DNA of 64,000 bases from Haliotis cracherodii. Lineage: Eukaryota. Under the pieces are notes generated by a model. That model was not told the origin of the DNA. It searched no databases and saw only the letters and a list, made by a program, of their open reading frames with translations. This document shows positions 43,201 through 60,688 of the stretch, piece after piece. Each line of letters starts with the position of its first letter. Within the stretch, counting starts at the first letter, position 1. The stretch lies in the NCBI RefSeq assembly GCF_022045235.1, contig NW_027266275.1, forward strand, positions 59,148,001 through 59,212,000. Reading direction: 5' to 3'. The position numbers and the translations under genes were made by a program.

Positions 43201-46200
43201 AAGACTGATATTACAATGCTGCAATTGGACATTGAGGAAAATTGACAGTTTTCATTTATTTCATTTATTCTGGTGCATTTGCCCTATGTTTCAAATAATT
43301 ACAGCTCATTTTATTATTTCTGCTTCACCGATTCTTCAGATTCTTGATTATATATTAAGGTGTCTTTTTTTATTTTTTCTGTTTGCAGATTCAGCTGAAA
43401 TGAGCTGCAATCACAAAAAAAAAAAATGTAGTATATAATCCTTTTTTAGAGAAAAATGTATCTGTAAATCAACAAAACAAAAGTAGTCCATGTGAATCAA
43501 CCTTTGTCTCTTGGTCTTGTATTGTGGTGTCAAGGTGAAGTACTGAGCTCCCAAGTCGACAGTACAAGTGTCATCTCCTGGCTTTCGCGATGTTGACATG
43601 CGACCTCCTGTAAAAATGATTGTCAATAATAAACAATGAGGTGAGGTGAAATTGGGTTTAACGTCGCGTCCAAGATTATTGCACTTATATAGCGACGTGC
43701 ATGGATGTGTATGTGTGTGTGTGGCTGCTTGTACTAGTCTAGACTGATGCCGATTTATAGTGCTAGCACACTGAGATACCATGCCGCAGTTTAACATGAA
43801 TACCCCACTCAGACACAGTATACTGACTACGAGCCGACCAGCCCTTTAATGCTGTGCGCCAGACAGGGTAACAACAAGTACCATCTTTTAACGTCTTTTG
43901 GTATGATGCAGCCGTGGATCGAACCTGGGACCTTCCACTCTCCGGGCGGACGCTCTACCACTAGACCACGGAGGCGGTCTAATAAACAATGACATCGCTG
44001 AATAACCCCACAAAAGATTTCCACCCACTCAAAAATGTTTAACTCTTGTCCAAAGAGCATGATGAAATTTGAAGAGATGAAACATGATAAGAGTATATTT
44101 GGCTCCATAGATGAACCATGAGGTGAGGTGAGGTGAGGTGATGTGAGGTGAGGTGATGTGAGGTGAGGTGAGGTGAGGTGAGGTGAGGTGAGGTGAGGTG
44201 AGGTGAGACAATTCTGTATTGCCCAGAATTCTCTTACATCAGAGCATCACGAAACATAATACAAGAAAAAAACTGGAATAAAAGAGGTCTGGGATCATTT
44301 CCATTTAACTTTTGGAGTGAGATATCTTTGCCCAGATGGGAAATCAGAAAAACAAGGGTTTAAGATGTTAGAACTAAGGTAATGTTCCACAAACTCAGCC
44401 AGCCTTTTGGAGGCATGTTCATATTTTGAGTTAAAACATGGCCACAAGTCTGCTCATCCCAAAAGTTGAAAAAAACATTGAATGAACATGTATACATATA
44501 ACATTTAGCATGTAGGCTAGTTCAGGTGGTTGGATTTACATTATTGTGTGTGTAGCGGCCATAAAATTTCCGAGTCCGGTAATGGGATTCGAACCACGGA
44601 CCTTCTGATCCGAGGTCGGACGCCTTGTCCACATGACCAAAGAGGTTAACCCTGTCAGCAAGCTGACAAGGTAAGGATGTCATCTGTGGGATGACTCCAC
44701 GCCCTGCTACACACTCCCTCGTCAATGGAAGGCATGTCCTGGGCTGCATAGTTGGGTAGTGAGGCTTACTTTGCTCAAATTTAATATGAACGTGCTCTGC
44801 CCAACGTTGGGTGCCAATGTAACGGCCATCAAATTTCCGAGTCCCGTGATGGGATTCGAACCACAGACCTTCTGATCCGAGGTCGTACGCCTTGTCGACA
44901 TGAACATAGAGGTTAACCCTGTCAGCAAGCTGACAAAGTAAGGATGTCATCTGTGGGATGACTCCACACCCTGCCACATGTGTATCCCTGTATTACATAG
45001 GTAATCAAACAGCCATATTGGCTCGGGCCCCAAAACTGATTTTTGTGTGTTTCTGTTGTCCTAAACCTTTTCACTTGGTTTTGGCCTCAGCAAAATAGTT
45101 ATTAGATAGACAAAAGTATGAGGAGATCCTACAGAACAGAAATCAATTTAAAACCAGATTCCAAAATTAGAGCCACAAAGCTCTGCAGGTCACCTGAGTT
45201 TTTTTCTTTTCTGATCAGAAAGGTCATACAAATAGAAAAGGAGCATAATTAAAAGAAGTCTTTACACAACAGACATTGTCGTGTGCGCTTATTAGTGCGG
45301 GGCGGTTATTACGTCGAATATGGTAATACGTGACTAACTGGCTATACAGAGAGCATGAATAGCATATTCATCAGGACTGTCATGGCACTATATTGGCTGC
45401 CACAAGGACACATGTAAAGATGAAAAGATTGTGTCAATTAAATCTCACAGTAACTAGCAACATGTTATTGGGCATACATTAGACTAATATCTGGTCTCTG
45501 GAATGAATATATTTTAAAGAAAAAAACAACAGTTGTTAAATTATAGTTATGAAATTTTCATTTTCAGATGATAGTATGACACAGTAGTAATTTAGACTTG
45601 CCAAACATTACAGACTTGCACGGGCTGTATTGGATATATTTATTTCAGGGTCTGTTTAATCAGAGATATGGTCTCTGGTTTAATAGATTAGGCATAACTC
45701 ACACTTACTGGATATCAAATTTCAAAACAATCTGCACATAAATGATTGAGTAATAGGCAAGAATTACAATTTTAATATCGCTGTCCAGATCGATGTTTAA
45801 ATCAGATCTGATAAAGTTTACCATGGACACGCTTCAAACAATAGATTACCAGGTGAACCATAATCCATGACAGTTCTGCAACTGTTGGTTTATAACTATA
45901 TTTGATCACCTGATTAGGTATGGTAAAATCAGTTTCAAACATGCATGTCCCTTGTGATAAATGATTGCAGGACTCAATGCCCAGGTGTACTGTCAACGAG
46001 TTTATTCACGGAGTGTGGGTGCAATATAAGAGTGAATATTCTCCTACCCTATTTTTTTTATCCCAGTGATGAAATTCTCTCGTGTCAGGATGATTCTCCC
46101 TAGGGAATTTGAACCCATACCAGTGTGTTTAATCCTATCCTATACTATACTCTAGAGTAAAACTTCTCCTGGGATAATATTTAGGTAGGATAGAATCCTT

Positions 46201-46451
46201 GCTTACACAAGCACCTGCCAGTAACGACATTCGATCACGTTTACCTATTACATCACATCATATTCCTACGTTCTGGATAATGATCATAATTATCATGTCT
46301 TGTTCATTAGGGAGGAACCGTGCTGCTGCTAACCTGCCCCATGAGACTTGTCCCACAATGTGATCGTCGCGTCCTCAGGTAGTTCCTGACGCAACGCAGC
46401 CGCGGTTGCCGCTCCTGTGATGCCTGTGCCTGCAACCAACACCCGCGCCAT
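37261..46451 (-). CDS. RNLS: Renalase (FAD-dependent oxidase), 349 aa; exons 46451-46334, 43607-43502, 43145-43006, 42428-42255, 41306-41130, 40028-39862, 37428-37261
   Basis: N-terminal Rossmann motif VLVAGTGITG; WDKSHGAGGRMSTSR; DLGAQYFT; FDAVILTMPVPQIL; VSYSSRFCLGLFY; HKWRYSQV; LAGDAF. All six introns GT-AG with consistent phases. Confidence 0.93.
37429..38808. repeat. Complex minisatellite built from splice-junction-like modules, abutting the last renalase exon
   Basis: On the - strand, shuffled modules CTATGTTACAG/GTGTTCCCCAGTTACAG/GTGTGACC resemble the real junction CTATGTTACAG|GTATTCCAGCAG. Confidence 0.9.
40445..40830. mobile_element. Diverged long-TIR MITE related to 15464-16050
   Basis: Shares TTGCCGAACTAGGCTG, TAGCGCCACCA and AGTCAATTAACAC-CTTGCCT motifs with that element. 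Confidence 0.6.
43637..43979 (-). mobile_element. tRNA-derived SINE (8382 family)
   Basis: Reverse complement begins GACCGCCTCCGTGGTCTAGTGGTAGAGCGTCCGCC; (CACCT)n tail. Confidence 0.85.
44119..44206. repeat. (GAGGT)n pentanucleotide microsatellite
   Basis: Read directly; same motif as the tail of the neighbouring SINE. Confidence 0.95.
44551..44978 (-). mobile_element. Complete miniature LTR retrotransposon (TRIM) with a tRNA-Arg-derived segment in both LTRs
   Basis: Two 161-bp TGT...ACA direct repeats (44551-44711, 44818-44978), 106-bp internal region, tRNA-Lys-like PBS TGGCACCCAACGTTGGGC, PPT GACGAGGGAGTG, and 4-bp TSD TGTG. Confidence 0.88.
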
Positions 46452-47153
46452 GGTGTGTCGGAGCATCGATTTGATCGAGGTCAAATTCCTTATCTCCCTG
46501 AAACAGTCTCACGTGTGATCGTGACAGAGAGAGCAAAACTCAAACAAAGCAAGGGAGGTAACTCTAAATTACTATTTCTCCCTACTACACAAGAGAGCTT
46601 CGATGGTCGCCGGATCTAGGAGTGATACCCGAAAGATCTTACCCGAAAGAACCCAGAGCTTTGGGTCTTAAATGTGACATTAGTTTTAAAACAGATTGCT
46701 CGAAACATTGTACATTATTCGTGAAAAATATGATTTAATATATTCACGAATTCGATTCTAGATCTCTCTGGGTAATATGTACACTCTTTTCGGGAAAAAG
46801 GAAAACATGCGAAGGCGAACCCCCACTTGCACAGAAAACCAAGAACAACCACTGACCACTTAGACAGAACAAGCTGCTACGATGATATGTCAATGAGCCA
46901 CCACTCACCTGCTGAAGCTTAGGTCTCTGTAATGTATTGAAGCGCTTGTAAAATGCAACATTGAGCAATGCAATCCGGAAGAAAAACTTAGAAAAAAACA
47001 GCTCCACCTCATTTAGCTCCCGTGCACAAGATGACCTTGCAATGGGAACATTTTAAACATAGGTGCGATTCATAATCATTTCGTAAAAATGTTTATTATC
47101 TTATGATTTTTATAATGGTAATCATCCCAGAAAAATGTTCAGACCAATATCTA

Positions 47154-48572
47154 TACTCACACGCTAAAGAAACGCAAGTGGTTTTAAGCAAATAGGTAAC
47201 AACACGGAGCCATAAATTGATACGATTTTTAGCATGTAGTGAAGCCTGATGGTGTTATCAATATTTTTGGTTGTATTTTTGAAGCCCCGAGTAAAAACGC
47301 AACATAAAAGACGAATCGCCAAAACGCACCATTTCAATGAATATGTGGGTATCATGCACCCTTTTCTCGCGAAACTGTAGTTGGTATAGACTGTGGCCCA
47401 TTTTTGGACCTACCACTCCTTGGTCAACAATGCCACGCCTAACTCAAATTCAGAGAAACCAGGCTATCGGACGTTTTGAAGCTGGAGAGTCTGTCCAAGA
47501 TGCTGCCCGTCATTTCAACGTTAACATAACCACAATTTACCGTCTCCTGCATCGATACAATGCTACACAGACCACAGATGACCTTCCACGGAGCGGTCGT
47601 CCTAGGGTCACCACACCTCGACAAGATCGGCAGATTACCCGTCAACACCAGCGACATCCGTTCCTAACTGCAAGTGAAAGTTCTTGACAGACCATAGGAA
47701 CATAATCGACACATTAGCCGGGACACTGTGTTCCGACGTCTCCGTTCCAACAACCTCAGATGTCGCCGACCAGCACGTTGTCCTGTTCTCCAACCACGGC
47801 ATCGACAAGCACGACTTCAGTGGGCAAAGGGGCGTCATCGTGAGTGGAGGCGTGTCATCTTCTCTGATGAAAGAAAGTCGCTTTTGTGTCTCCCATGCAG
47901 ACGGAAGAGTCCGAGTTTGGCGGCGTCGAGATGATCGTTTCGCTGACAGAAACATTGTGGAAAGGGATCCATGGGGTGGACCTAGCGTCATGATATGGGC
48001 AGGGATTGGACTTAATGCGAGACTTGGACCCATGTGCTTTCTGAATGTTGGTCAAGGTCGGGGACACGGCGTCACTGCTCAGCGATATATCGACCGAGTG
48101 ATCAGACCCCATGTTGTTCCATTTTTTGCACAACATCAACAACACATTTTCCAGCAGGACAACGCTCGTCCCCACGTTGCCAGAGCTACCATGGCCTTTC
48201 TGCAACAACACACCATCCGTGTTCTACCGTGGCCAGCCCTCAGCCCTGATCTGAACCCCATCGAACACTTGTGGGATGAGGTTCAAAGGCGTTTGCACAA
48301 TGTGCGCCAAGTCCGTACAACTGCCGATGAACTACGCACAGCTGCTCTGGATGTGTGCAGGAGGATCTCTAGGGCCTTCACAAATCGTCTGATCCACTCA
48401 ATGTACAGGAGATGTGTGGCAGTGATCAATGGTAATGGTGGTCACACCAGGTATTGACTGACAGTTTGGGTATTGACCCAAATTGGCCCTATTAGTATAT
48501 CTTGTCTTTACTGCTGAAAATAAATAACATGTTTACTGCATACTCGACTTGCGTTTCTTTTGCGCGTGAGGA
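47154..48572 (+). mobile_element. Full-length Tc1 (DD34E-type) transposon
   Basis: TIRs TACTCACACGCTAAAGAAACGCAAGT / ACTTGCGTTTCTTTTGCGCGTGAGGA flanked by TA; encloses a transposase gene. Confidence 0.92.
47430..48457 (+). pseudogene. Tc1 transposase with two frameshifts (~47680 and ~47870)
   Basis: MPRLTQIQRNQAIG...DLPRSGRPRVTT; WRRVIFSDE/ESRF; FQQDNARPH; WPALSPDLNPIEHLW; NGGHTRY*. The motifs are split over three ORFs. Confidence 0.9.
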
Positions 48573-50160
48573 TATATTTTAGTGACCGAAAATATTTGCC
48601 CTCATTTTAGTGAAACGAGAAGAGTCGTAAACTGTTCTCTTCTTATGGATTTCTCATATTGCTTGAGTAAACGACCAGTTCCGCTGAGAATTTATTCCAA
48701 CCAGTAAATGAGTATAAAAACTTCTCTGGTAAAATTGGTTCCTGGCCACACTGCTAAACGAACATAAATAAAAGCATGATCTGATAATTTGTGACCTTCG
48801 GATCTGTACAATTCGCGCATTCCATAACATCAGCATGGGTGTAAGGTGACGAATCTATAAAGACGTGCTACATGAAATCCACGTGCATTGCGTTACACTC
48901 CACACGCAGTTCCCTGTTCAAAGGAAATGGATTTTTCCGTTGAATTTGGAACGCTTACTGTCCAAATTCGACAAAACATATTTTAATGTTTGATTAGCAG
49001 TAGATGTGACAGCTCAGTATAGAGCCCCAGTGTTATCTACGACACGATTTTTGTTAGGCACCTTATCTGTCAGTGCCCACGTCATTTCCAGGACATGGAT
49101 TTGGGTCAGGATTTGAATTCTGTTTGAAGTTTGTTTTTTGTTTGTTGTTCAACACCGCAATCACCAATTTTCCAGCGATTAGACGGCGGCTTCAAAGCAA
49201 TCGAATCTGGAGTAACGTCATGAATATCGATCTAGGCACATTTGGATACGATGACATGCATCAACTAAGTCGGAAGGCCAGACCACTCGATTCCGTTAGT
49301 CGCGCCTCTTACGACAAGTACATGGAGATCTTGTTACGACGTAAATTGTAAAAACGCGGTTAATTACACTTTACGTCGTAACAGATATCCTGAGAGTATT
49401 ATCGTTGTACCTTAATGGCGAGGATCGTTGCTCATGCTGTCAACCACAGGTTCAGACAATCATTTACTGATGTAGCTTTAATATTGATGACTACAGCAGT
49501 GTGCAACACCAGCCACATTATGGTAAATATATGAGGAGTGGTTTTTGTTTCTTTGGGTGTTTACAACATCGCACTCAGCAATGTTCCAGCTATATAACGG
49601 CGCCCTGTACGTACTCGAGTCCGGATCAAACAAACCAGTGATTTATATTTATATGAACAACTTTCCACGATGTCGGGATAGGATGCCATTCAATCAACCA
49701 GGTTACCGAGCCTGACTACCAGATCCATTAAGTAGTTGTCTCTACAGCTAAACACGGTAGCGAGCACTAAGATCTGATTTCAATGAGATTAATCCACTTA
49801 GTCGCCTTTTACGACAAGCCTAGGTCGCCGGGGATTCGAACTAGGAATCCTCACGGCGAAAAGACAAAAGCTTCAAATATACAACATTCTTCTCATGATA
49901 GAGATTATGTCATAATTAAGAAATAAACGACGAGTGGGAGTATTTTATCGTACAATAAAACTCTGCAGGGAGCATAAGCCATGAGGCTCGAAGCATTCTG
50001 CTATTAAGGCCTGCTATCTACAAAGCTATTTGTCTTGTCACCTGCGACGAGCCGAACTATAGCCAGGAATCTATGTATAGCATGGCCTCGGATCTCACTG
50101 ACCGAGATATAGCGGCCAAGGCCATTCCACCCAATATCTACGTTACTCCATTGTCATGGG

Positions 50161-50460
50161 GCCGCCTCCGTGGTCCAGTGGTAGAGCGTCCGCCCGGAGA
50201 GCGGAAGGTCAGGGGTTCGGTCCCCGACCGCGTCATACTAAAAGACGTTAAAAAATGGTACTTGTTGTTACCCTGTCTGGCGCTCGGCATTAAGGGGCTA
50301 AAACAAGCAGTGGTTGGCTCGGAGTCAAGTGCGGCATTGTATATCAGTGTGCTAGGACTACAAATCGGCATCAGTCCGGACTCGCATACACATGCATGCA
50401 CATTGCTATATATTTGCAATAATCTGGAACGCAATGTTAAACTCTATCTCACCTCACCAT
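50161..50460 (+). mobile_element. tRNA-derived SINE (8382 family)
   Basis: GCCGCCTCCGTGGTCCAGTGGTAGAGCG head and shared body. Confidence 0.8.
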
Positions 50461-55200: not shown

Positions 55201-57622
55201 GCACTTGTCAATATTACAGCTATATGAGAGCGGTCTGTAAATAATCGAATCTTGACCAGACAATCAAGTGATTGACATCCTGAGCATCGATCCACTTTAA
55301 TTGGGATACGATGAACTACATGAAGTCAGCGAGCCTGACCACCCGATCCCGTTAGTCGCCTCTTACGACAAGCAAAGTCGCCTTTTACGGCAAGCATGGG
55401 TTGCCGAAGACCTATTCTACTCCGGATCTTCACGGGTCCCAACTGAGAGAGGATAGGTGATATCAGACATCTTTCCTTAAGGGAAAAGGCAAAAAACACA
55501 AACCCAAACCCCCCAAAACAAACAAACCAAAAACACCCCAAAAAACAATCAAGCGTGCCGGGAAACACGTGCCGGGTTGATGACAACCAGTAAAGCTCGA
55601 ACTGAACAGGCTTTCACTGGTCCTTGAAACTCAGCAAGTGTATGAACAGCCAAATCGTAATCGTCGTAAATACCTGTACTATACTAAAAGTCTGAAGCTT
55701 TTACGACATGCATCAAGTTGTCTACAGTGACACGTCAGAAGTTAGTGATTATGAATTATAACGCCAGAGAATAATCAGTGTCCACCATCTGCCTAAAAAG
55801 ATTCTTTTGGCGTAAAATGCAAAAGGAAAATAGCGACGAAAGGTATGAATGGACGAAAGTTATGAACGGAACACTGTAAATCAGTGATGACACCAGTAGT
55901 TCACGAAAAGGGTAAGTGTGTCTTGCTCTACCGGTAGCACCAGCCACACATTTGCATGAAAAAGTAAATGGCAGTACTCTACCGTACGCCGGCGGCCTGT
56001 GAAACGAGTCTTGACAGACAATCCAGTGACACGATAGCACAGTTACTGAGTTTGTTGAAACTAGAAACGATACGTTAATTTTGAATTACTGTTAAAAATG
56101 GCATTAAATTCACGCACCCTATGCTGGTATTAGCTCCATCTCTGTTGTGTTGTTGCAAAGATATGATCGTTGTTGTAGGTGTCACACACCAGTTGGCTAT
56201 CACCACACTGTGTCCGGTGTCACCCTTGGAGTTGGGTGTGGCAGAATCGGCACCATCATGCACGAGACAATGCACGCCCTGGGCTTCTGGCACGAGCAGA
56301 GCCGTCCCGATAGAGACAACTACGTCACCATTGACTTTAGCAACATCCAGAGAGGTATATCATGAGTGAACAGAAATTAAAAAATGCAGTTATTGTCTTA
56401 AAGTTATTTTTTAGTAAGTAACCCCCGAAAAGTGAGCTGAGTTATCAACAATAATTCACTCGATCTGAAAGTTCAGCTTATCATAAAGTAACATATTTCT
56501 CTACGATAATGGTTTCCGGTCTCTTGTTTCAATGACGGTGATGTTGCAGGGCACGAACGCAACTTCGACAAGTACACCACCACACAGGTTGACACTCTTG
56601 GACTCCAGTACGACTACGAGTCCGTCATGCACTACAACGCCTACAGCTTCGCCGTCGACCGTAGGAAGCCAACCATTATTGTCAAGCAGAAGGGAGCAGT
56701 CATTGGACAGAGAACTCACCTGAGTCCTTTTGACATCAAGGAGATCCAGATGTACTATGGTTGTTTGGCTTCCCAGGGCTCCCTCAACACGCCAGCTCGT
56801 AAGTCAACTAAAAACTTCAGCATAAAGGATAGTTATTCCTATAAATGTAAATCACGTTAAACTGAGGAGCGCTACTTGTAGTTGTGTTACTTATTTATGT
56901 ATTTCCACCATACAAAAATGAAATGATTATTCGATGGTGATGTATTTGATACGGGTATTATAGGCGATATTCCATGTATCATATCATTGAGCATATGGGA
57001 CTCGAGGTAACATGAACATGACGTCTTTAGGAACACGGGGGTCGCAATTTCACAGTACACGGTAATGAGCAGAGTGAAGCAGGTATTAGTTAAACTTTCT
57101 TGTGTTATTTCTACCTCTTAGAAACGGTAACAGCGTTAACTGAAAATTCTTTATTTTGATAATTGCTTTGTTGATTGTTGACATTGTACTGTAGAAATAA
57201 ACATTACCAACTTTTCATTGTGGTCAAATAAAATGTGTTTCAGCTGCAACTCTGTCACCTGTCCAAGGTAAGTAACGTTAACATCTTCATCTTTAAACAC
57301 TTTTATTCAGGGATAAGGTCGTGATAGTGCCTTTTGTTCATGTGCTTCTTAGTTTTGTACTGTAAAAAAATCACATTATAAATCCCAACAATAAACATCA
57401 AGCAGATTGTATGAAAAAAGACATTTGTCTCAGCACATATCCCTGAACCCTTTTCTCTGTTTGTAATTAGCTGCTGAAACCTGTACCTTCCAATCCGATT
57501 TCTGCACATGGAGCAACGTTGGAGGAGACACCATGGACTGGCTCCGTCACAGGGGCCAAACCCCCAGTATAGGGACTGGTCCCACCTCCGACCACTCGGG
57601 ATCATCAACAGGTCAGTCTGTG

Positions 57623-57680
<58 letters not shown>

Positions 57681-58528
57681 TCCATTCAGGTCTTTCTTAA
57701 ATACCTTAAAATAATGATGTGTTTCAATGACAAGGTTTACTGAGGAATACGCTAATAATAATATTAATATAATAATAATGATAATGTTAATAATAATAAT
57801 ATTAATAATATGTTTTTAATATTAGGTATATCAATAAAAGAGTGACCTTCCATCCAAGCATTTCTTAAATACTTAAAACACACACACTTTATTTCATGTT
57901 TTTATTTTGTAAATAGCAGTAATGTTTAAATTTTGCCTTGAAAAGGTTACTACGCCTACCTTGAAGCATCAGGACACACCAGACAGAAGGGATACCTGCT
58001 GTCTCGCCTCTTGCCCGCGGGACACTACTGTTTTAGCATGTACTACTACATGAGCGGCCAAGATGAAGGTAGCCTTAAAGTCGAGGCTGTTTCGTCAGGC
58101 AACACAAGGAAAGTTATTCATACCATTACTGGTAACCAGGGCAACACGTGGCATCAGTACCTCGTTAACATCAATCTGAACGGAGCCAACTTTCACGTAA
58201 GAATTCATTATTGAAATAAAAATACAGATGCAGTTCCGGTACAGTTGATCATTTATCATCCGAACTGAGACCATTGCTCAATATCTTTATCGGTTTTATT
58301 TTTTCCAAGTTTATTGACAGTTTGCCGTAAGATATGTATTTGTTTTAAATTGCCTATAGTTTCTCAGAAAAAAATCCACATCAGATTGACATTCTGTATA
58401 ATGAATTTTTGTTGTATCTTCAGCTCGAAATCGAAGGTGACGTCGGAAATAACTACAGAAGCGACATTGCCATCGATGACATCACAATCCATAGCGGTGA
58501 CTGTTCAACTCTTCCCGCTGCCGGTTAG
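52246..58528 (+). CDS. Secreted astacin-family (M12A) zinc metalloprotease with C-terminal MAM domain (meprin-like), 435 aa; exons 52246-52305, 52873-52888, 53147-53170, 53542-53588, 53738-53816, 54124-54259, 56179-56354, 56550-56798, 57244-57267, 57471-57611, 57946-58196, 58424-58528
   Basis: Signal peptide, prodomain [20 protein letters not shown], zinc motif [19 protein letters not shown], Met-turn SVMHY, MAM motifs ([25 protein letters not shown]). All phases consistent; AATAAA at 58584-58589. Confidence 0.92.
54300..55080 (-). mobile_element. Decayed mariner-type transposon in astacin intron 6
   Basis: [27 protein letters not shown]...ILSDRGI...GSIETIIH resembles a mariner HTH region; the frame is broken and boundaries are approximate. 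Confidence 0.7.
55183..55440 (-). mobile_element. Best-preserved copy of the ~260-bp GACCCGTGAAGATCC element
   Basis: 5' end GACCCGTGAAGATCCGGAGTAGAATAGGTCTTC; duplicated TGCTTGYCGTAARAGGCGAC hairpin; (CAAA)n tail. Confidence 0.8.
57623..57680. repeat. (TAC)n microsatellite directly after an astacin exon donor
   Basis: Read directly from the sequence. Confidence 0.95.
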
Positions 58529-59235: not shown

Positions 59236-60688
59236 TACTCTTCAATAAAAAAAAGAAACGTAAAGCCAGAATTGTGTGTAGAAAAATACATATATACGAG
59301 GAAACGCACAAGGTATTGAGACAAAATGTTGTGGAGAGAACACATGGTGATTGTAGTCATCTTAGTTATCGGTAAATGTCCAAGGTAAAGGTCAGCTACC
59401 GACAATAACGCAATTGGCCCCCGTTGACATCTCCTGTCCATGGAAGAGACGAGTATGCGAATCACATCGTTGGGAATGGTAGCCCTCTCAACCAGCAACG
59501 CAAATCCAAACTGCTGCAACGTCTGAGGTTGTGGTTGACGTCGGCGAAGCCGTCTATTCAAAATTATCCCACAGGTGCTCTATCGGGTTGAAATCTGGGG
59601 ATCTGGAGGGCCAGGGGAGAACATCAACGTTGTTGTTGTGTAGACAGGCTCTTATGATCCGTGCTGTATGCGATCGAGCGTTGTCCTGCTGGAATACACC
59701 GTTGCCGTTGGCTGCAATTGGGATGACGTGTGGTAGGAGAATTTCGTTAATGTATCGTTGGTCGTAAGATTGCCCTGAATATGGACCAAACATGTAATGA
59801 TGTAATGCAATGATGAGAGACAGCCGCCCACATCATAACACTACCCCAACCAAACCTGTCCACTTGTACGCAGTTTCCGACGTAACGTTCTCGCCGACGT
59901 CTGTAGACCTGTGCTTTTCCATCTCCTCCACGGAGAAGAAATCTTGATTCGTCGCTGAACCAGACATCTCTCCATCGCAGTTGAGGCCATACCCTGTGTT
60001 GACGACACCAATGTAGTCGTTGTTGACGATGTTGTCTACTCAATATGACGCGTCGAACAGGACGTTTTGCTCGTAAACCTGCTGCTCTTAAACGGTTTCG
60101 TACGGTCTGGTCGGAGATTCTGCGCAGTCCGGGTATTTAGGATGCGGTTGAAGTGACTGTGGTCGTTCTTTCACGTAGGTGGCGCAGTCGGATGTAACGA
60201 TCTTGGGCGGGGATCGTCATCCCGACCTTGGCCGATCACGTGTTGACCCATGCTGTTTAAACCAATCCCATAGCCTTGTGATGGTGCTGGGCGCGTCATT
60301 AAAAACCCTGGCTACAGCTGATCGGGATTCCCCTACCTGAAAGCGGCCTATGACGTTTCTTCTGACGCACTTCTGTTAATCTTGGCATGTTGTTGAACTG
60401 CCACTGTTCGATTAACGCAGATGCCAGGCAATAAAAAACCTGTACTTTAATACCGTTCAAAGTGCTGCTGCACGTGCAGTGCGTGCAGCTCCAAGGCCCT
60501 TTTGTTAAATACACTGGGTGCGTTATTCCGAATCCTACGTGTTTCCCGACTAATGGTTTGCATGTCCTTGTTGCGATCATTTTGATCCGAGAAATATATC
60601 ACTGACACTATAACATATTAAACCTCTTCATTTTGCGCCTCTTTTATTGCCAAAAATATCCGTAATTCGTTTCTTTTTTTGAAGAGTA
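59236..60688 (-). mobile_element. Full-length but pseudogenised Tc1 transposon (transposase ~60388 to ~59400)
   Basis: TIRs TACTCTTCAA...AAAAAGAAACG at both ends with flanking TA. MPRLTEV, WFSDESRF, FQQDNARSH and WPSRSPDFNPIEHLW lie in several frames. Confidence 0.9.

What the first reader, a model, noticed from the sequence alone, without database searches (positions are those of the whole stretch)
44551..44978. 428-bp LTR retrotransposon in miniature whose LTRs contain a tRNA-Arg-derived Pol III promoter
Seen: 161-bp TG...CA LTRs with about 12 mismatches by eye and a TGTG TSD. The PBS TGGCACCCAACGTTGGGC is two mismatches from the tRNA-Lys(CTT) PBS TGGCGCCCAACGTGGGGC. A PPT precedes the second LTR, and there is no coding capacity. 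Each LTR carries TGGACAAGGCGTCCGACCTCGGATCAGAAGGTCCGTGGTTCGAATCCC (tRNA-Arg-TCG-like, with A/B boxes) and two short hairpins (TGTCAGC-AA-GCTGACA; GTCATC-TGTGG-GATGAC). Established: TRIMs with small-RNA genes in their LTRs are rare (5S-bearing Cassandra; tRNA-bearing Helenus-type). Inference: a SINE/LTR hybrid transcribed by Pol III and mobilised in trans by an autonomous, probably Gypsy-type, partner. It lies in renalase intron 1 in sense orientation, and this family may be unannotated.
Basis: partly seen in the sequence, partly recalled or inferred. Interest (0 to 1): 0.72.

Follow-up and report, generated by a model that had tools for sequence, protein, structure and literature searches.

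The report
Abalone mini-retrotransposon fused to its helpers
This is one old copy of a tiny gene-less jumping element that carries a broken tRNA look-alike (a kind described in 2024 as Helenus) and has hundreds of copies in an abalone genome; hybrid copies joined to two larger Gypsy elements at the shared primer site point to the helpers it likely borrows its enzymes from, while its tRNA-type transcription is still only predicted.

Summary
Confirmed: a 428-bp TRIM (161-bp LTRs, 12 mismatches; 106-bp internal part; TGTG TSD), sense in renalase intron 1 of an abalone. The family has at least 657 LTRs and 138 LTR-internal junctions, independent 4-bp TSDs (24 of 29 loci), solo LTRs and tandem arrays, so a local SINE duplication is refuted. 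It meets every sequence feature of Helenus (Kojima 2024), whose mollusc list holds bivalves only; the tRNA part matches host tRNA-Arg-TCG (26 of 29 nt in the core) but is no tRNA. New beyond the finding: two sister Gypsy families share its tRNA-Lys-CTT PBS and terminal bases, and family A shares its target-site bias. Seven hybrids run Gypsy LTR-PBS-TRIM internal-TRIM LTR and two run TRIM LTR-PBS-Gypsy internal; two hybrid loci have perfect outer TSDs and a third has an empty site. This is direct fossil evidence of likely co-packaging and of the helper's identity. Pol III transcription is untested; the only T4 stop lies inside the LTR, so the template RNA would need read-through. This copy is a fossil, apparently shared with two other species. 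An earlier unchecked scan note saw Helenus-Copia hybrids in a fungus. Verdict: new member of a known kind, with useful partner evidence.

The parts
44979..44982 (.). Target-site duplication, copy beside the 5' LTR (TGTG on +, CACA on -)
44818..44978 (-). 5' LTR, 161 bp, TG...CA; 9 or so private changes, box A and T4 damaged
44838..44913 (-). tRNA-Arg-TCG-derived segment of the 5' LTR (box A 44896-44906 with 2 changes; box B 44851-44861 intact)
44799..44816 (-). Primer-binding site for tRNA-Lys-CTT (2 mismatches in this copy), after a 1-nt spacer at 44817
44712..44817 (-). Internal part, 106 bp, non-coding; shares only the PBS (19-20 nt) with the two Gypsy families
44712..44723 (-). Polypurine tract next to the 3' LTR
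44551..44711 (-). 3' LTR, 161 bp; first 10 nt identical to Gypsy family A LTR, last 6 nt shared with families A and B
44674..44698 (-). Predicted hairpin 1 in U3 (9-bp stem, one bulge); twin at 44941-44965
44649..44672 (-). Predicted hairpin 2 in U3 (10-bp stem, CUUG loop); twin at 44916-44939
44571..44646 (-). tRNA-Arg-TCG-derived segment of the 3' LTR: box A 44629-44639, box B 44584-44594; 52 of 75 aligned columns identical to the host tRNA gene, 26 of 29 in the core; not a functional tRNA
44563..44566 (-). T4 run, 12 nt before the LTR end; the only T4 of the sense strand in a young copy; candidate leaky Pol III terminator
   Evidence: intact in 89 of 101 LTR copies
44547..44550 (.). Target-site duplication, copy beside the 3' LTR
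46332..46466 (-). Context: renalase-like coding exon 1
43498..43608 (-). Context: renalase-like coding exon 2

Best explanation
This is an old copy of a non-coding, tRNA-bearing miniature LTR retrotransposon family (Helenus type) with hundreds of copies in this abalone genome, which is likely transcribed by RNA polymerase III from the tRNA-Arg-derived boxes in its LTR and likely copied and integrated inside the particles of two sister Gypsy families with which it shares its primer site and ends and forms hybrids. Shown: LTR-PBS-internal-PPT-LTR anatomy, independent 4-bp TSDs, solo LTRs, tandem arrays, recent activity of the family, shared PBS, termini and target bias with the Gypsy elements, and hybrids joined at the PBS. 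Inferred: (1) Pol III starts about LTR position 60-66, often stops at the T4 at 146-149 (an RNA of about 85 nt) and, when it reads through, ends at the T4 of the 3' LTR (about 350 nt, R about 85 nt, U5 12 nt, both hairpins in U3); (2) this RNA is packaged with Gypsy RNA and primed by tRNA-Lys-CTT; (3) because the second strand jump of reverse transcription is guided by the PBS alone, it sometimes crosses between TRIM and Gypsy molecules, giving the hybrids, and between TRIM molecules, giving some tandem arrays; (4) Gypsy integrase accepts the TRIM ends. The window copy itself is likely a dead fossil (damaged 5' box A and PBS).
For: Family: 51 matches from 40 scored of 1859 candidates; 657 exact LTR 19-mers, control 0; 138 exact LTR-PBS-internal junctions, control 0. 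TSD: 24 of 29 loci (L008 dropped as a duplicate of L007), many different 4-mers; 7 of 27 scorable copies have identical LTRs. Of 27 places sampled in genome order: 8 solo LTRs with TSD, 7 two-LTR copies with TSD, 2 tandem arrays. Host tRNA-Arg-TCG gene found and aligned. Boxes A and B vary less than the rest of the LTR among 101 copies (27 of 1818 against 246 of 8989 non-CpG cells, p 0.001, cells not independent). Gypsy A: 861-bp LTR, RT-RNase H-integrase order, PNMA-like gag, same first 10 and last 6 nt and 19-nt PBS match. Gypsy B: 848-bp LTR, 9 of 10 first nt, 20-nt PBS match, one copy with 99.9% LTRs. Target bias alike: YNNR in 27 of 38 TRIM and 11 of 14 Gypsy A sites, T at -2 in 24 of 38 and 12 of 14. 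Hybrids: 6 of 13 Gypsy-A LTR/PBS junctions and 1 of 11 Gypsy-B junctions lead into the TRIM internal part, each with a Gypsy-length spacer; two TRIM LTRs lead into Gypsy A internal DNA. Outer TSDs: L147 CTGG/CTGG, L074 CGTG/CGTG, L112 CAAG/CGAG with contigs of two runs joining its flanks as an empty site. L129: an A-type LTR followed by an antisense tRNA-Lys-CTT, a mark of that primer in use.
Against: No transcript evidence: the RNA-labelled runs are contigs only and their label is a guess. Box A is one base off the TRGCY motif that Kojima gives. The T4 before the PBS works against making a template RNA unless it leaks. Four of the 7 Gypsy-to-TRIM hybrids (L118, L119, L123, L125) have lost their 5' end, so no TSD can be read; L073 is 5'-truncated too; L074 carries a later duplication of LTR plus right flank and a Gypsy-type spacer where a TRIM spacer is expected; the 5' end of L147 is a fold-back of the Gypsy U5. 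The junction searches required a PBS, so they cannot show junctions elsewhere; the unbiased set gave 2 hybrids in 30 loci. The L112 flanks are repetitive, so its empty site may be a paralogue. 5 of 29 loci lack a perfect TSD. No compensatory change supports the hairpins. Other Gypsy families with a more diverged Lys PBS were not surveyed.
Confidence: 0.78

Rival explanations
1. Same TRIM and same Gypsy helpers, but the template RNA is made by RNA polymerase II (from U3 or from host read-through); the tRNA boxes only give a short dead-end RNA or act on chromatin.
For: The only T4 lies between box B and the PBS and is kept in 89 of 101 copies, so Pol III would often stop before the PBS; about 24 of 43 bivalve Helenus LTRs read by eye have the same T4 placement. 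Kojima states that Pol III activity of Helenus is unvalidated.
Against: U3 is only about 60 nt and is filled by two hairpins, with no evident Pol II promoter (inference). Boxes A and B vary least among copies. T4 flanked by A is a weak terminator (recalled, no call). No poly(A) signal was noted in the LTR by eye.
Confidence: 0.14
2. The hybrids were made on the chromosome after insertion (microhomology repair or conversion at the 18-20-nt PBS), so Gypsy A and B merely share a primer type and are not proven helpers.
For: Five hybrid loci are truncated, and L074, L073 and L147 are rearranged. Most complex LTR elements in plants are ascribed to recombination after insertion (PMC1950507; PMC13570524).
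Against: Such crossovers leave unlike flanks (PMC1950507), yet L147 and L074 have perfect outer TSDs and L112 has a 3-of-4 match with an empty site; 18-20 nt is little homology for 9 events; hybrids form only with the two families that also share termini, and family A shares the target bias.
Confidence: 0.07
3. A tRNA-derived SINE duplicated locally in tandem, with chance TG...CA ends.
For: The repeat holds A/B boxes like a SINE head, and tRNA-derived SINE-like repeats lie nearby.
Against: At least 138 copies of the same LTR-PBS-internal junction, fixed termini, 4-bp TSDs at independent sites, solo LTRs, an exact tRNA-Lys PBS.
Confidence: 0.01

Closest known systems
Helenus / TRIMp3 (Kojima 2024, PMC10886601; main text parts 1-5 of 6 read, supplement parts 1, 5, 6, 7, 11 of 11 read, motif searches over the whole supplement)
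   Same: TRIM under 1 kb, tRNA-like segment with boxes A and B in both LTRs, PBS for a tRNA 3' end (Lys is among those used by bivalve families), PPT, 4-bp TSD as in animal families, solo LTRs and tandem arrays, no working tRNA. A hairpin followed by GGGTTAACC and CTTT just before box A is shared with 3 or more oyster families, and the PPT end GGGGGAGTA occurs 12 times in the supplement.
   Different: Host is a gastropod (Table S1 lists bivalves only among molluscs; 'gastropod' 0 times in the text). The tRNA part is Arg-TCG-derived, while molluscan families are aligned there to tRNA-Lys-TTT. No family in Data S1 matched five exact family motifs or the shorter ones as the same family. Kojima infers animal helpers from PBS likeness and TSD length only; here hybrids tie the TRIM to named Gypsy families.
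Cassandra (5S-bearing plant TRIM; PMC7215508, passages read; the 2008 paper PMC2311327 was not held, known here only through Kojima's text)
   Same: Pol III-type promoter and terminator inside the LTR, tandem arrays, read-through of inner LTRs.
   Different: 5S rather than tRNA; plants; its autonomous partner is stated to be unknown.
Complex three-LTR insertions made by template switching (Sabot and Schulman 2007, PMC1950507, part 1 of 2 read; review PMC6894440, passages read)
   Same: Two elements fused in one reverse-transcription round and flanked by one TSD.
   Different: Those join members of one family through R-region homology; here the partners share only the PBS and a few terminal bases, and one is a non-coding Pol III-type TRIM.
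biv-TRIM of bivalves (PMC6934838, passages read)
   Same: Mollusc TRIM with solo repeats and tandem arrays.
   Different: No canonical PBS, no tRNA promoter reported in the LTR, no partner found.

Membership tests
TRIM | Two short LTRs with TG...CA ends, total under 1000 bp, no coding domain | tested here: met
   428 bp, 161-bp LTRs; similarity to the Gypsy elements limited to PBS and termini
TRIM | PBS after the 5' LTR and PPT before the 3' LTR | tested here: met
   PBS matches host tRNA-Lys-CTT 3' end plus CCA; purine tract in all aligned copies
TRIM | Dispersed copies with independent TSDs | tested here: met
   24 of 29 loci; 38 distinct sites
Helenus (TRIMp3) | tRNA-like sequence with boxes A and B inside the LTR | tested here: met
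   52 of 75 columns identical to host tRNA-Arg-TCG, box B exact, box A one base off the TRGCY motif
Helenus (TRIMp3) | 4-bp TSD in animal families | tested here: met
Helenus (TRIMp3) | tRNA-like part is not a working tRNA and is not the primer | tested here: met
   No ARAGORN gene, no Rfam match at E 10 in a young tandem copy, no cloverleaf, C in place of the loop U before the anticodon; the primer is Lys, the LTR part Arg
Helenus (TRIMp3) | Mobilised by a Gypsy element (animal families) | tested here: met
   By sequence fossils only: shared PBS, termini, target bias and 9 hybrid junctions at 8 loci; not shown by experiment
Helenus (TRIMp3) | Transcription by RNA polymerase III (proposed, not validated, in the defining paper) | not testable with these tools
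   Only contigs of runs guessed to be RNA were on offer
tRNA-derived SINE (SINE2) | tRNA head at the 5' end, LINE-like or simple-repeat tail, variable-length TSD | tested here: not met
   tRNA part starts at LTR position 66, fixed TG...CA ends, fixed 4-bp TSD
LTR retrozyme (ribozyme-bearing non-autonomous LTR element) | Self-cleaving ribozyme in the LTR | tested here: not met
   No Rfam family at E 10 over a three-LTR copy or at E 5 over the window copy; a ribozyme outside Rfam's models is not excluded

The most novel reading that the evidence does not exclude
A Pol III TRIM that picks its helper by nothing more than an 18-20-nt primer site and a few terminal bases, rides two sister Gypsy families, and often captures the helper's own plus-strand strong-stop DNA (6 of 13 family-A LTR/PBS junctions lead into the TRIM), so that it both borrows and spoils the helper's replication; one leaky T4 would set both an 85-nt small RNA and the 350-nt template. 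The hairpin-GGG-CTTT-box A frame shared with oyster families would mean an old molluscan TRIM scaffold that swapped its tRNA head.
Probability: 0.45. Interest if true: 0.62.

Novelty: new member of a known kind. Interest (0 to 1): 0.45.

Why it matters
The kind is known, but how Pol III TRIMs find their helpers is an open question: Cassandra's partner is stated to be unknown (PMC7215508) and animal Helenus partners were inferred from PBS likeness alone (PMC10886601). Here TSD-flanked hybrids name the helpers and suggest that the PBS and the integrase ends are enough, which can be checked by sequencing particle RNA and extrachromosomal cDNA. The same hybrids give a general genome-mining rule: search for 'foreign LTR + PBS + TRIM internal' to find any TRIM's helper. 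It also extends Helenus to gastropods. For the renalase gene the copy is probably inert, though useful as a shared-insertion marker between species.

Tried and rejected
tRNA gene: rejected. Ribozyme in the LTR, prompted by earlier scan notes: no Rfam match. Internal part as a deletion derivative of Gypsy A or B: no similarity beyond the PBS. A second, bivalve-like Helenus family in this genome: one motif search, 0 matches; one exact motif is a weak test. L129 as a hybrid with a second TRIM: it is an antisense tRNA-Lys instead. Covariation in the hairpins: no two-sided change among 101 copies, which are too alike to tell. Insertion polymorphism from raw reads: X18 and X19 had almost no depth on the unique flanks, so no verdict. 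Expression: X12 contigs cover TRIM and Gypsy LTR pieces but are only guessed to be RNA; X17 had one record; no verdict. Summed contig depth was not used as a copy number. Literature searches for a gastropod or abalone record, or for follow-up on Helenus partners; none found (PMC9587614, PMC10294476 and PMC4758252 seen as listings only; PMC12859917 passages only). Repbase and Dfam could not be searched, so the family may already be entered there. Exact-motif searches of the supplement can miss matches across line breaks, and supplement parts 2-4 and 8-10 were not read.

Full report
Observation. The repeat pair is real: 44551-44711 and 44818-44978, 161 nt, 93%, 12 mismatches, 106 nt between them, with TGTG on both sides. 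On the minus strand it reads LTR, 1-nt spacer, PBS, internal part, purine tract, LTR. It lies between coding exons 1 and 2 of a renalase-like gene on the same strand. The source label of the identical protein is Haliotis cracherodii, so the host is an abalone, a gastropod.

Family. A DNA search of the genome gave 51 matches from 40 scored of 1859 candidates. Of 29 independent loci (L008 dropped as a duplicate of L007), 24 have identical 4-bp flanks and 5 do not; 7 of 27 scorable copies have identical LTRs (L010 and L021 left out for indels). An exact LTR 19-mer occurs 657 times and the exact LTR-PBS-internal junction 138 times, both with 0 for the reversed control; these are lower bounds. The first 30 19-mer loci in genome order (27 places) hold 8 solo LTRs with TSD, 7 two-LTR copies with TSD, 2 tandem arrays, and truncated or rearranged forms. 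L007 has three LTRs inside one TSD. The family has therefore moved recently; the window copy is among the older ones.

Age of this copy. Contigs of organisms B and C run from the unique flanks into the element at both ends (the left junction is bridged by the 31-base rule in X10 and the right in X5; the other two records reach 27 bases in). Their flanks differ from the window by about 3-7%, in line with the 7.5% between the two LTRs. The insertion is thus likely shared between species. Its 5' LTR has two changes in box A and a broken T4, and its PBS two changes, so it is likely dead.

The tRNA part. A host tRNA-Arg-TCG gene was found. LTR positions 66-141 align with it at 52 of 75 columns, 26 of 29 over the D-stem and anticodon arm, with box B exact. 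It is no tRNA: no ARAGORN call, no Rfam match, no cloverleaf, C for the loop U before the anticodon. Among 101 LTR copies boxes A and B vary less than the rest (27 of 1818 against 246 of 8989 non-CpG cells; positions 82-101 left out because the sampling fixed or split them; cells are not independent). This is weak support for promoter function. U3 folds into two hairpins (z -2.2 to -3.1), without covariation support. The only T4 on the sense strand of a young copy is at LTR 146-149. By tRNA-gene geometry (established knowledge) Pol III would start near position 60-66; it would give about 85 nt if it stops there and about 350 nt if it reads through to the 3' LTR. Only the second is a template. 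About 24 of 43 bivalve Helenus LTRs read by eye have a T4 in the same place; the paper mentions terminators only for Cassandra.

Primer. The PBS of young copies is the exact complement of the host tRNA-Lys-CTT 3' end plus CCA. At L129 a Gypsy-A-type LTR is followed by an antisense tRNA-Lys-CTT (39.5 bits), as expected if plus-strand synthesis ran on through that primer (inference).

Helpers. A search for other holders of this PBS (11 matches) led to Gypsy family A (L075-L077): 861-bp LTRs, a PNMA-like gag and pol in RT, RNase H, integrase order. Its LTR begins with the same 10 nt as the TRIM, ends in the same 6 nt, and has a 4-nt spacer where the TRIM has 1 nt. A sister family B (about 80% in pol) has 848-bp LTRs, 9 of the 10 first nt, a 3-nt spacer, a 20-nt PBS match and a copy with 99.9% LTRs. 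TRIM and family A prefer the same palindromic target: YNNR in 27 of 38 and 11 of 14 sites, T at -2 in 24 of 38 and 12 of 14, A at +6 in 30 of 38 and 9 of 14; family B was not tested. Nothing but the PBS and the termini is shared.

Hybrids. Of 16 junctions with a 4-nt spacer, 13 follow a family-A LTR; 6 of these go on into the TRIM internal part and a TRIM LTR, 6 into Gypsy internal DNA (two of them one duplicated locus), 1 into the tRNA; the other 3 follow TRIM LTRs. Of 13 junctions with a 2-3-nt spacer, 11 follow a family-B LTR and 1 of these goes into the TRIM. Two TRIM LTRs lead into family-A internal DNA (L073, L074). L147 has CTGG on both outer sides, with a folded-back Gypsy end at its 5' side. 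L074 reads TRIM LTR, PBS, Gypsy internal, Gypsy LTR, PBS, TRIM internal, TRIM LTR inside CGTG, with a later duplication of LTR plus right flank in its 5' part. L112 has CAAG and CGAG, and contigs of X1 and X10 join its flanks with 1138 bases skipped, the hybrid plus one TSD. L118, L119, L123 and L125 lack their 5' ends. These searches required a PBS; the unbiased set of 30 Gypsy-A LTR loci held 2 hybrids, both at the PBS, and mostly solo LTRs. Hybrids cannot collapse to solo LTRs, so 6 of 13 overstates the rate per insertion.

Mechanism. The second strand jump of LTR reverse transcription is guided by the PBS (established knowledge; outline in PMC6894440). If TRIM and Gypsy RNA share a particle and a primer, a Gypsy plus-strand strong-stop DNA (LTR, spacer, PBS) can land on a TRIM minus strand, which gives exactly the hybrids seen, spacer included; the reverse gives L073; both together give L074. 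A minus-strand switch at the PBS would give the same and also needs co-packaging. A single outer TSD is the test that Sabot and Schulman used for fusion before integration. Steps shown: anatomy, mobility, shared cis signals, hybrids. Steps inferred: Pol III transcription, read-through, co-packaging, strand jump.

Known kin and novelty. All sequence features of animal Helenus are met. The family is not in Data S1 by motif search, and no gastropod is listed; a short frame before box A is shared with oyster families. Seven literature searches found no gastropod record and no Helenus-helper hybrids; Repbase and Dfam were out of reach. An unreviewed scan note reports Helenus-Copia hybrids in a fungus; I did not check it and had found the hybrids here before reading it. 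Verdict: new member of a known kind; interest 0.45, mainly for the helper evidence.

Noticed in passing
L071 / L160 (G000:C1:86396893-86398474): About 32 tandem copies of LTR positions 1-49 sit before one full LTR: a 49-bp minisatellite born from the TRIM's U3. The same 49-bp joint shows in reads or contigs of organisms A, B, C and D, so more arrays likely exist.
   Followed up: partly
L138-L141 (G000:C2 from 45989455): 216 exact matches to the tRNA-Lys-CTT 3' end, all on one strand; the first 100 listed form one tandem array with 297-bp (later 297/212-bp) spacing; ARAGORN genes in L138. This is the primer tRNA of the TRIM and both Gypsy families.
   Followed up: partly
L129 (G000:C45:13081504-13084523): Gypsy-A-type LTR followed by a nearly whole antisense tRNA-Lys-CTT and then pol-like DNA: likely run-on copying of the primer.
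   Followed up: partly
L037, L054, L058/L059, L155, L073: TRIM pieces joined head to head in inverted orientation, several at or near the near-palindromic PBS.
   Followed up: no
L117, L124, L150, L074 (5' junction): TRIM LTRs followed by a 3- or 4-nt Gypsy-type spacer instead of the usual single T; may mark switches within the shared last 6 nt of the LTR.
   Followed up: no
TRIM LTR position 101 (window 44611 and 44878): Third anticodon base splits the family: T in 55 and G in 35 of 101 copies; T copies are younger (median 1 against 4 other differences) and carry a 10-nt palindrome there. Meaning unknown.
   Followed up: partly
L022 and L028: Two TRIM copies of different sub-lineage sit at the same base of near-identical flanks: repeated insertion into one site of a repeat, or a duplication.
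   Followed up: no
window 43795-43980 (-) and about 50140-50330 (+): A very abundant tRNA-derived SINE-like repeat, one copy in the same renalase intron.
   Followed up: no
window 47295-48457 (+) and 59483-60600 (-): Tc1/mariner-like transposase frames in pieces (named by eye from the translations, no family scan); 37-bp inverted arms at 47143-47179 and 48547-48583.
   Followed up: no
window 56075-58214 (+): Exons that look like an astacin metalloprotease with a MAM domain (named by eye, no family scan).
   Followed up: no
window 44119-44207: (TGAGG)n microsatellite in renalase intron 1.
   Followed up: no
runs X18, X19 on window 43900-45600: Strong C>T and G>A excess and almost no depth on unique DNA; unexplained, treated as uninformative.
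   Followed up: no
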